Source: the human T2T-CHM13v2.0 reference genome, Homo sapiens. From it: a stretch of DNA of 64,000 bases. A model generated the notes under the pieces. It saw nothing but the letters and a program-made list of their open reading frames with translations, was not told the DNA's origin and made no database searches. Positions 26,201-27,363 of the stretch are shown here, piece by piece. Both the position numbers and the translations under genes were made by a program. The number at the start of each line of letters is the position of its first letter. The first letter of the stretch is position 1. The stretch lies in assembly GCF_009914755.1 (NCBI RefSeq), contig NC_060925.1; one strand, written 5' to 3'.

Positions 26201-26984
26201 CAGGCTGCCATGGCAAGTCCACAAATTGTCAGGTACTCAAGTTCCTTGCAATCACCACCTGGCCATCTTTAGGGCATGGCCCTCAGGCTTGTGGCTCGAG
26301 AGTGGTATGGAAGAAGGGAAGAAAAAAGGGATGCTTTATTTCTCTTGAAGAGACTCCAGGTATTATTTACATCTCACTAGCCAGAACATAGTCTCATGGC
26401 TCTGGCACCCATTGTTTCAATGGAGGCTGAAGTATCGTCTTATATCCAGAGGGCAGTGAGCCCAGCTAAAACCAGGGCTCTTTTACTAAGCCAGATTGAT
26501 ATTAGGAAGTGAGTAGCCATTAAAAACTCACAAAACTCTTGATTTTTCTGTTTTGTCCTTTGATAACCAGTTGGTTGGTGTCTTCTGTTACTGGGCATAT
26601 AAAAGTTGGGGGAGATAGCAAAACTCAGATCTTTCAGTCTTGCTGTTTAAGGGAAGCATCAGTGGGTTTGGTGAGTGTTGGAACTGAGACTGAGATTTAG
26701 TATGTCTTCAGGCTCTCAGCTTCTTCCACGTGTCTGCCACCATGGCCCTTTCCTGCTGCCTCCTTTCTTTTTATTTCATATATTGAATGCCTTTTTTTTA
26801 TACAAATACTATTCATCTTATTTTTCATTTCTAGACATCTCTATTTTTGCTTCTTTTCCAGATGGACCTAGATGAAGACACTGCTGAAAAATTTTATCAA
26901 AAGTTACTGGAACTGGAAAAGCACATTAGGGTCACTATTCAAAAAACAGATAATCAGGCCAGGCTCAGTGGCTCATGCCTATAA
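5037..26984 (+). CDS. HSD17B7: HSD17B7 spliced CDS, join(5037..5071,7227..7430,11152..11244,12368..12482,14307..14501,17995..18099,18831..18887,19958..20056,26862..26984); 3-keto-steroid reductase/17beta-hydroxysteroid dehydrogenase 7, 341 aa
   Basis: Exon lengths 35+204+93+115+195+105+57+99+123 = 1026 nt with an open frame and GT-AG introns. SDR motifs TGASSGIG, NAG and Y193-SSS-K197 are present. The intact frame favours the functional gene over the chr10 pseudogene HSD17B7P2. Confidence 0.97.
5764..6085 (-). mobile_element. AluYa5
   Basis: Ya5 diagnostic positions (ATCCCGGCTAAAACGG, CGTAGTGG, TACTTGGG, GATCCCGCC on the - strand), T39 tail, TSD CATTTGGCATTTTT. Confidence 0.92.
7227..7430 (+). 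CDS. HSD17B7: HSD17B7 exon 2 ([11 protein letters not shown]...KELKQR)
   Basis: cccag| acceptor, AG|gtatat donor; part of ORF 7180..7446. Confidence 0.96.
7596..7900 (-). mobile_element. AluS
   Basis: Full dimer; TSD agtaccac(g/a)ttttc. Confidence 0.9.
7864..8230. repeat. Three tandem copies of a 121-125 bp unit
   Basis: Units start at 7864, 7985 and 8110 (gtgctgggattacagg...gatcagttg). Confidence 0.92.
10400..10458. repeat. Perfect 20-bp inverted repeat
   Basis: TTTAAACCTATGTAAGTCTT (10400-10419) and AAGACTTACATAGGTTTAAA (10439-10458). Confidence 0.95.
11152..11244 (+). CDS. HSD17B7: HSD17B7 exon 3 ([15 protein letters not shown]...LFSR)
   Basis: ttgcag| acceptor, AG|gtaatt donor; NAG motif. 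Confidence 0.96.
12368..12482 (+). CDS. HSD17B7: HSD17B7 exon 4 ([11 protein letters not shown]...NVFGHFIL)
   Basis: tttcag| acceptor, |gtaaag donor. Confidence 0.96.
12690..14230 (-). mobile_element. Old L1M (L1MC-like) 3' fragment, interrupted by an Alu
   Basis: Degenerate L1 3' UTR-like sequence; boundaries approximate. Confidence 0.55.
13280..13583 (+). mobile_element. AluSp
   Basis: GGAGAAACCCC diagnostic; gaaagaaagtt repeated at both flanks. Confidence 0.88.
14307..14501 (+). CDS. HSD17B7: HSD17B7 exon 5 ([10 protein letters not shown]...PYSSSKYA...NFNQQ), catalytic YxxxK
   Basis: Polypyrimidine tract and cccag| acceptor, CAG|gtaagg donor; TAC at 14436, AAA at 14448. Confidence 0.96.
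14730..14990. mobile_element. MIR
   Basis: ccattttcagatgaggacactaa...ggtcacacaac core. Confidence 0.6.
15553..15831 (-). mobile_element. Alu (S/J)
   Basis: Alu dimer in antisense. Confidence 0.88.
16050..16270. repeat. Degenerate (TG)n/(CATG)n alternating purine-pyrimidine tract
   Basis: gtgtgtgcatgtgt-type repeats. Confidence 0.75.
17995..18099 (+). CDS. HSD17B7: HSD17B7 exon 6 ([10 protein letters not shown]...LMPAILL), hydrophobic segment
   Basis: cctag| acceptor, |gtaagt donor. Confidence 0.95.
18831..18887 (+). CDS. HSD17B7: HSD17B7 exon 7 ([19 protein letters not shown])
   Basis: ccgcag| acceptor, |gtatgt donor. Confidence 0.95.
19958..20056 (+). CDS. HSD17B7: HSD17B7 exon 8 ([10 protein letters not shown]...YIMTQK)
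   Basis: ttccag| acceptor, AAG|gtaaat donor. Confidence 0.95.
21530..25943 (-). mobile_element. 5'-truncated L1PA (about L1PA4-6), 4.4 kb, in intron 8
   Basis: ORF1 C-terminus (25617..25967) and frameshifted ORF2 endonuclease/RT fragments in the ORF track; TSD AAATGTTATTTTC at 21517-21529 and 25944-25956. Confidence 0.95.
26862..26984 (+). CDS. HSD17B7: HSD17B7 exon 9 coding part ([10 protein letters not shown]...[11 protein letters not shown])
   Basis: ttccag| acceptor; TAA at 26982-26984 lies inside an Alu. Confidence 0.95.
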
Positions 26985-27270
26985 TTCCAGCACTTTGGGA
27001 GGCCAAGGCAGAAGGATCACTTGAGACCAGGAGTTCAAGACCAGCCTGAGAAACATAGTGAGCCCTTGTCTCTACAAAAAGAAATAAAAATAATAGCTGG
27101 GTGTGGTGGCATGCGCATGTAGTCCCAGCTACTCAGAAGGATGAGGTGGGAGGATCTCTTGAGGCTGGGAGGCAGAGGTTGCAGTGAGCTGAGATTGTGC
27201 CACTGCACTCCAGCCTGGGTGACAGCGAGACCCTGTCTCAAAATATGTATATATTTAATATATATATAAA
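26957..27270 (+). mobile_element. AluJ-like element overlapping the HSD17B7 stop codon and 3' UTR
   Basis: GGCCAGGCTCAGTGGCTCATGCCTATAATTCCAGCACTTTGGGAGG; tail decayed to (TA)n. Confidence 0.92.
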
Positions 27271-27363
27271 ACCAGAGCTGACAATGACACTCTGGAACAT
27301 TGCATACCTTCTGTACATTCTGGGGTACATGGATTTCTACTGAGTTGGATAATATGCATTTGT

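What the first reader, a model, noticed from the sequence alone, without database searches (positions are those of the whole stretch)
26957..27281. HSD17B7 C-terminus and stop codon are Alu-derived, with the probable ancestral stop stranded downstream
Seen: the last residues ARLSGSCL and the TAA are read from the Alu 5' end (GGCCAGGCTCAGTGGCTCATGCCTATAA). Just after the Alu tail is AAC CAG AGC TGA (27270-27281), echoing the pre-insertion AAT CAG as a TSD remnant. Removing the Alu gives ...KTDNQS*, i.e. 334 aa, matching my recollection that the rodent protein is 334 aa (to be verified). Inference: a primate Alu replaced 1 residue with 8, added a penultimate Cys and created most of the 3' UTR.
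Basis: partly seen in the sequence, partly recalled or inferred. Interest (0 to 1): 0.7.

Follow-up and report, generated by a model that had tools for sequence, protein, structure and literature searches.

The report
Alu-capped end of HSD17B7 enzyme
An Alu repeat sits in the last exon of the human cholesterol enzyme gene HSD17B7 and supplies its last eight amino acids and stop codon, with the likely older stop left 300 bases downstream; the Alu tail is already published and is likely a harmless passenger.

Summary
Real, and mostly known. An Alu starts at 26957 and supplies codons 334-341 (ARLSGSCL) and the TAA. In frame after its tail lies AAC CAG AGC TGA (27270-27281), an N-Q-S-stop pattern found 3 times in 128,000 window positions. 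Martinez-Gomez et al. (PMC6924539) already list HSD17B7 as an AluJb C-terminal swap with a validated peptide. The tail looks neutral: 21 of 23 unrelated Alus give eight residues and a stop in this frame, and 5 end in SCL through CpG decay. The tail differs between human and snub-nosed monkey, and mammalian ends vary. Corrections: the target-site remnant alone is no better than chance; the Alu is 71% of the short RefSeq 3' UTR but about 20% of a longer form inferred from a chr6 retrocopy. I found no paper on the stranded stop or that retrocopy. Interest low.

The parts
26862..26957 (+). Ancestral coding part of HSD17B7 exon 9 (Met302-Gln333)
   Evidence: Translation; aligns without gaps to colugo, lemur and pig proteins
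26941..26957 (+). Likely left copy of the target-site duplication (A-run to the Gln codon, up to 17 nt)
   Evidence: 14 of 17 match in register to the tail end of the chr6 copy, 11 of 17 to the window's tail; controls 9-13. Suggestive only
26957..27269 (+). Full-length sense Alu (AluJb per PMC6924539 Table S1): two arms, A-rich linker, tail decayed to an AT-rich run (about 27240-27269)
26958..26984 (+). Alu-derived codons 334-341 (ARLSGSCL) and the present stop TAA
   Evidence: peptide [12 protein letters not shown] validated in PMC6924539 Table S1
27083..27088 (+). AATAAA inside the Alu linker; absent from the chr1q44 retrocopy, use unknown
27270..27275 (+). Right-hand remnant of the duplicated target (Asn-Gln codons)
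   Evidence: the chr1q44 retrocopy has the same six bases on the left side of the Alu
27276..27281 (+). Stranded ancestral last codon (Ser) and likely ancestral stop (TGA), now 3' UTR
   Evidence: ortholog ends NQS; TGA kept in the chr10 and chr6 copies
27364..27369 (+). AATAAA 18 nt before the RefSeq transcript end (27387)
   Evidence: hub annotation
27453..27740 (+). Second, younger Alu just past the RefSeq end; absent from the chr6 retrocopy, present in the chr10 duplicate
28354..28376 (+). Distal AATAAA and likely distal transcript end, where the chr6 retrocopy's homology stops before its A-rich tail

Best explanation
An Alu sits in the last coding exon of HSD17B7 and supplies the enzyme's last eight residues and stop codon; it likely inserted one codon before the old stop in an ancestor of monkeys and apes, and the new tail is likely a tolerated, near-neutral passenger. 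Steps: (shown) the Alu begins at the Gln333 codon and its head reads eight codons and a stop; Ser-stop lies in frame behind its tail. (Inferred) L1-driven insertion at the A-run of exon 9 duplicated the target and pushed Ser-TGA into the 3' UTR. (Inferred) the fresh tail read like the Alu majority, AGRGGSRL, and drifted mostly by CpG decay to AGHSGSCL (snub-nosed monkey) and ARLSGSCL (human, chimpanzees). (Inferred) it was tolerated because the stop came at once, in the last exon, at a free cytosolic end that varies across mammals.
For: Ortholog ends: 98 of 142 proteins have a 33-residue exon-9 part (the 334-aa register), 84 of those end in Ser, 21 in NQS; Alu-type tails occur in 9 of 142, all Homo, Pan, Rhinopithecus or unnamed. 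Colugo, Lemur catta and Prolemur end in NQS. N-Q-S-stop pattern: 3 in 128,000 positions. Same frame in 23 unrelated Alus: stop at codon 9 in 21, SRL 5, SCL 5, SHL 5. The chr1q44 retrocopy shares 10 of 20 bases private to this Alu and reads AGHCGSCL-stop. Ends shorter or longer than 33 residues occur in dog, tree shrew, sloth, bats, tarsier, loris and naked mole-rat. PMC6924539 found no selection on its 36 translated Alu regions as a set and names only ZNF394 and CMC2 as C-terminal additions whose stop is kept throughout primates. AlphaFold2: residues 335-341 pLDDT under 50, after a helix at 306-336.
Against: No non-human DNA was seen, so the empty site and the stop's homology rest on proteins. 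New World monkeys were not among the named hits (clusters at 90% hide members; one search listed 120 of 251 hits) and the tarsier protein ends early, so the date is loose. The last five residues (SGSCL) are the same in human and Rhinopithecus and GSCL also in the retrocopy; eight codons are too few to exclude constraint. The model is weak overall (mean pLDDT 60.5) and only 2 of 55 aligned rows carry the tail, so low confidence there is expected. The selection tests in PMC6924539 are pooled or summed, not reported for this gene.
Confidence: 0.82

Rival explanations
1. The history is as above, but the Alu tail was co-opted as a C-terminal signal: the Alu head in this frame ends in Ser-Arg-Leu, a peroxisomal (PTS1-type) tripeptide, later changed to Ser-Cys-Leu, which may act as a weak PTS1 or a PDZ-type ligand, most plausibly on isoform 3, which lacks the membrane segment.
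For: Majority Alu reading ends SRL-stop. SRL and SCL ends were both reported as functional PTS1 in plant reporter work (PMC8886021 passages). Human isoform 3 (P0003) lacks residues 215-249, most of the annotated membrane segment 230-250, and keeps the tail. The C-terminus is said to face the cytosol (PMC12852399). The S-x-L PDZ class I pattern is recalled, from no call.
Against: Human Flag-HSD17B7 co-localises with the ER marker calnexin; the mouse enzyme is in the ER too. SCL is a common decay product (5 of 23 Alus). The plant data need not hold in mammals. Isoform 3 loses a core part of the fold and may be inactive or unstable (inference). None of the 15 papers listed mentions HSD17B7.
Confidence: 0.07
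2. The tail is neutral, but the Alu matters through the RNA: it lengthened the 3' UTR by about 290 nt and may change mRNA stability, translation or poly(A) site choice of a cholesterol and oestrogen enzyme.
For: 71% of the RefSeq 3' UTR is Alu; an AATAAA arose in the Alu linker; the chr6 retrocopy points to an older, more distal 3' end.
Against: No expression data were examined. The second Alu just downstream has the same orientation, so the two cannot fold into an inverted pair. Alus in 3' UTRs are common (general knowledge).
Confidence: 0.1
3. The downstream Asn-Gln-Ser-stop is a chance match and the true ancestral stop was lost or lies elsewhere.
For: The 17-nt target-site match in the window is no better than controls. 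The chr6 copy has a different codon before the TGA.
Against: The closest outgroups end in exactly NQS; the pattern is rare and sits directly at the end of the Alu tail; the TGA is present in all three copies that keep this flank.
Confidence: 0.02

Closest known systems
HSD17B7 entry in Martinez-Gomez et al., NAR Genom Bioinform 2019 (PMC6924539), Table 1 and Table S1
   Same: The same event: AluJb, principal isoform, eight residues, 'C-terminal swap', 25 bases, validated peptide [12 protein letters not shown].
   Different: Table 1 says 'N-terminal', which the sequence and the paper's own Table S1 contradict. In the parts I read the paper does not give the stranded stop, the one-for-eight count, outgroup ends, the retrocopies or the origin of the Cys.
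ZNF394, TTF1, ZNF91, ZNF101, ZNF433, ZNF669 (Alu-derived C-termini in main isoforms, same paper)
   Same: An Alu merges with an existing last coding exon and supplies the end of the protein; ZNF394 also gains eight codons.
   Different: Those are mostly zinc-finger or nucleic-acid-binding proteins; HSD17B7 is a metabolic enzyme. ZNF394 shows weak coding selection and a stop kept across primates; HSD17B7 is not named as doing so.
Classical Alu exonisation (splice-site recruitment from intronic Alus)
   Same: Alu sequence becomes protein-coding.
   Different: Here the Alu is sense-oriented, inserted straight into a coding exon, needs no new splice site and is in the main isoform.

Membership tests
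Alu SINE | Two 7SL-derived arms joined by an A-rich linker, about 280-300 nt | tested here: met
   SRP-like arms at 26958-27074 and 27096-27241; 69-80% identity to 23 other Alus
Alu SINE | 3' A-rich tail | tested here: met
   Decayed AT-rich run at about 27240-27269; A-rich in the chr6 copy
Alu SINE | Flanking target-site duplication | tested here: inconclusive
   11 of 17 in the window, 14 of 17 in the chr6 copy, controls 9-13 of 17; six bases exact against the chr1q44 retrocopy's left flank
AluJb subfamily | Subfamily diagnostic positions against a curated consensus | not testable with these tools
   No repeat library here; the label comes from PMC6924539 Table S1
Alu-derived C-terminus in a main isoform | Alu overlaps the coding end of the principal transcript | tested here: met
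   Annotated coding exons give P0006 letter for letter, last eight residues from the Alu
Alu-derived C-terminus in a main isoform | Tail absent from non-primate orthologs | tested here: met
   9 of 142 proteins have the tail; the six named ones are Homo, Pan or Rhinopithecus
Alu-derived C-terminus in a main isoform | Peptide evidence of translation | not testable with these tools
   Reported as validated in PMC6924539 Table S1; spectra not seen
PTS1 peroxisomal signal | C-terminal tripeptide of the SKL type | tested here: inconclusive
   Present end SCL is non-canonical (worked in a plant reporter); the inferred fresh end is SRL
PTS1 peroxisomal signal | PEX5-dependent import into peroxisomes | not testable with these tools
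   Published location of the full-length protein is the ER
CaaX or Rab-type prenylation motif | Cys four residues from the end, or a CC/CxC end (definition recalled; CaaX and CC named) | tested here: not met
   The single Cys is second from the end

The most novel reading that the evidence does not exclude
Any fresh sense Alu read in this frame caps a protein with Ser-Arg-Leu-stop, a ready-made peroxisomal targeting tripeptide. HSD17B7 received such a cap, CpG decay tuned it to Ser-Cys-Leu, and it still sends the membrane-less isoform 3, or part of the enzyme, to peroxisomes or to a PDZ partner in monkeys and apes only.
Probability: 0.05. Interest if true: 0.7.

Novelty: already known. Interest (0 to 1): 0.2.

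Why it matters
HSD17B7 is one of only 11 genes listed with Alu sequence in the main protein isoform (PMC6924539), so it is a clean teaching case: the insertion point, the displaced stop and intermediate states in retrocopies are all readable. Practically, human and mouse enzymes differ at the cytosolic end and 3' UTR, which is worth knowing for C-terminal antibodies, tags and mouse models, and Table 1 of the paper has the wrong terminus. If the tail proved to be a targeting signal it would be an Alu-made sorting motif on a core sterol enzyme, but nothing here shows that.

Tried and rejected
Tandem pseudogene as an empty-site witness: its exon-9 copy parts from HSD17B7 just before the A-run, so it says nothing on the old stop. 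chr10 duplicate and chr1q44 retrocopy as pre-Alu copies: both carry the Alu. chr6 copy as proof of one shared insertion: its Alu arm is more diverged (non-CpG K2P 0.21) than its unique flank (0.10-0.135) and shares 3 of 8 'private' bases, which I recall being largely AluJ-versus-AluS diagnostics, so an early copy, gene conversion or a template switch cannot be told apart. Tarsier for dating: its end (IQKNR) is what a one-base slip in the A-run gives, so it is uninformative. Long read-through ends in unnamed ruminant-like proteins (P0015, P0017, P0025, P0028, P0042) have Trp where named relatives stop and are likely stop-readthrough artefacts of gene calling; they are counted in the 142 but not interpreted. 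Target-site duplication as stand-alone evidence: not above controls. Solved structures: exon 9 hit only designed TPR repeats by composition, and the whole protein found one distant dehydrogenase at E 1e-10 or better, no HSD17B7 structure. Prenylation: Cys is in the wrong place. That the tandem pseudogene is the ortholog of an elephant HSD17B7-like protein: one exon suggested it, the whole-protein comparison did not. Earlier findings of the scan could not be consulted, so no cross-check against them.

Full report
Observation. Exon 9 of HSD17B7 translates to ...[17 protein letters not shown]. The Alu starts at 26957, sharing its first G with the Gln333 codon; 26958-26981 encode ARLSGSCL and 26982-26984 is TAA. 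Rfam's SRP model marks two arms (26958-27074, 27096-27241), and the element aligns to 23 other Alus from the window and fetched loci at 69-80%. The tail has decayed to an AT-rich run and is followed by AAC CAG AGC TGA at 27270-27281. The annotated exons give 341 aa, identical to database protein P0006, with 333 residues ahead of the Alu part.

Is the stranded stop real? The N-Q-S-stop pattern occurs 3 times in 128,000 positions of the window, once exactly at the end of this tail. Two protein searches (84 hits, all listed; 251 hits, 120 listed) gave 142 distinct proteins. Measured from the start of exon 9, 98 of 142 have 33 residues (the 334-aa register); 84 of these end in Ser, 62 in QS, 21 in NQS. 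One protein had no anchor; 8 have 40 residues; the other 35 have 26-38 residues (29) or long read-through ends (6). The closest outgroups are the clearest: colugo ends KTDNQS, Lemur catta and Prolemur KRDNQS, pig KTDNQS. Alu-type tails occur in 9 of 142: Homo (2), Pan (3), Rhinopithecus (1) and three unnamed. Named rodents such as Grammomys, Mastomys, Alexandromys, Arvicola and Meriones are 334 aa; a rat entry is 335 aa with the same 33-residue end; Mus musculus was not among the named hits. So one Ser was replaced by eight residues. I had no non-human DNA, so the stop's homology is shown at protein level only.

Target-site duplication. The older left flank (from the chr1q44 retrocopy, which has AAC CAG before the Alu) matches the window's tail end at 11 of 17 bases in register and the chr6 copy's tail at 14 of 17; tails of 20 unrelated Alus reach 9-13 of 17. 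A duplication of up to 17 nt starting at the A-run is likely but not proven.

Other copies in the genome. A chr10 duplicate (L002) is nearly identical and carries the Alu. An intronless copy at chr1:247.26 Mb (L003) joins all nine exons, carries the same Alu (10 of 20 private bases shared) and reads AGHCGSCL-stop. I take these two to be HSD17B7P2 and HSD17B7P1, names recalled and only partly seen in a search listing. A third copy at chr6:27.54 Mb (L006) holds an Alu right arm, its tail, the same flank with TGA, and about 1 kb of downstream sequence without the second Alu; it is framed by a 14-nt direct repeat (13 of 14 identical) and ends in an A-rich run just where its homology stops, about 17 nt after the AATAAA at 28354. 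It is likely a 5'-truncated retrocopy of a long-UTR HSD17B7 mRNA. Its Alu arm is more diverged from the parent (non-CpG K2P 0.21) than its flank (0.10-0.135), which I cannot explain.

Date. After the lemur split (lemurs lack the tail) and before the Old World monkey/ape split (Rhinopithecus has it). Tarsier ends IQKNR, what a one-base slip in the A-run gives, so it does not help; no New World monkey was named in the hits. The retrocopy's Alu differs from the parent's by K2P 0.12 outside CpG sites, which by recalled primate rates suggests some tens of millions of years.

Does the tail do anything? In the same frame 21 of 23 unrelated Alus give eight residues and a stop; 5 end SRL, 5 SCL, 5 SHL, and the column majority reads AGRGGSRL. 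So length and stop are built into any Alu head, and the Cys is an ordinary CpG-decay product. Rhinopithecus has AGHSGSCL and humans ARLSGSCL, two changes in eight residues. Mammalian ends vary freely around this point. AlphaFold2 with 55 rows puts a helix at 306-336 and pLDDT under 50 at 335-341, but the model is weak (mean 60.5) and only 2 rows carry the tail. Against neutrality: SGSCL is shared by human and Rhinopithecus, and eight codons give little power.

The 3' UTR. Alu sequence is 285 of the 403 nt of the RefSeq 3' UTR (71%), but about 20% of a form ending near 28376.

What is known. Martinez-Gomez et al. (PMC6924539; I read the abstract, passages including Table 1, sections 20 and 24, and the text of the supplement with Table S1; figures not visible) list HSD17B7 among 11 genes with Alu sequence in the main isoform: eight residues, AluJb, C-terminal swap, validated peptide [12 protein letters not shown]. 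Their Table 1 says 'N-terminal', evidently a slip. They found no selection on the translated Alu regions as a set and name only ZNF394 and CMC2 as additions whose stop is kept throughout primates. PMC11846448 (passages) concerns a different, polymorphic AluY acting as a first exon of HSD17B7. bioRxiv 10.1101/2025.07.15.665034 (passages; supplements not seen) gives the 341-aa domain map and ER location; PMC12852399 (passages) gives ER and nuclear-envelope location in mouse cells and a cytosolic C-terminus. PMC8886021 and PMC1929074 (passages) were used for PTS1 tripeptides. All other papers were seen as search listings only. Nine searches of the open library showed no title or abstract start on the stranded stop, the chr6 retrocopy, the tandem pseudogene or an Alu-made PTS1; subscription papers, including the original HSD17B7 cloning papers, are not in that library.

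Boldest reading left open. The fresh Alu end is SRL, a PTS1-type tripeptide, and today's SCL worked as one in a plant reporter. Human isoform 3 lacks residues 215-249, most of the annotated membrane segment, and keeps the tail. A primate-only route to peroxisomes is therefore testable, but the full-length protein is reported in the ER and SCL arises by default; I give it 5%.

Verdict. Interest 0.2.

Noticed in passing
window 39364-39566, 43668-43782, 47113-47296, 53702-53791, 55437-55490, 58646-58746, and 64000 onward (L007 6000-6078): An old, intron-containing tandem pseudogene of HSD17B7 on the + strand, absent from the hub's gene table: copies of exons 2, 4, 5, 6, 7, 8 and 9 in order, about 70-84% DNA identity, with stops and frameshifts. 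Closest proteins match at 64-69%, lemur and aye-aye best, so it likely predates primates.
   Followed up: partly
L006 about 1330-2545 (chr6:27.544-27.545 Mb): Likely 5'-truncated retrocopy of the HSD17B7 3' end with a 14-nt flanking repeat and A-rich tail; it lacks the Alu at 27453-27740, has a later antisense Alu of its own, and points to a distal poly(A) site near window 28376. Its Alu arm is more diverged than its flank, unexplained.
   Followed up: partly
L003 585-1866 (chr1:247.258-247.260 Mb): Processed pseudogene with all nine exons and the Alu in an older state; it breaks off near the Alu's 3' end, before the tail and old stop.
   Followed up: partly
PMC6924539 Table 1 and Table S1: Table 1 calls the HSD17B7 addition N-terminal; Table S1 and the sequence say C-terminal. 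In the last rows of Table S1 (ZNF394 to ZNF91) the subfamily and coordinate cells appear shifted against the gene names.
   Followed up: no
window 17995-18099 (exon 6): Human isoform 3 (P0003, 306 aa) skips this exon and so loses most of the annotated membrane segment while keeping the Alu tail.
   Followed up: partly
window 26941-26946: The A-run at the insertion site also seems to slip in other mammals: tarsier, stoat and jackal proteins change frame here and end differently.
   Followed up: no
window 27083-27088: An AATAAA has arisen in the Alu's middle linker (present in the chr10 duplicate, absent from the chr1q44 retrocopy); it could serve as an early poly(A) signal.
   Followed up: no
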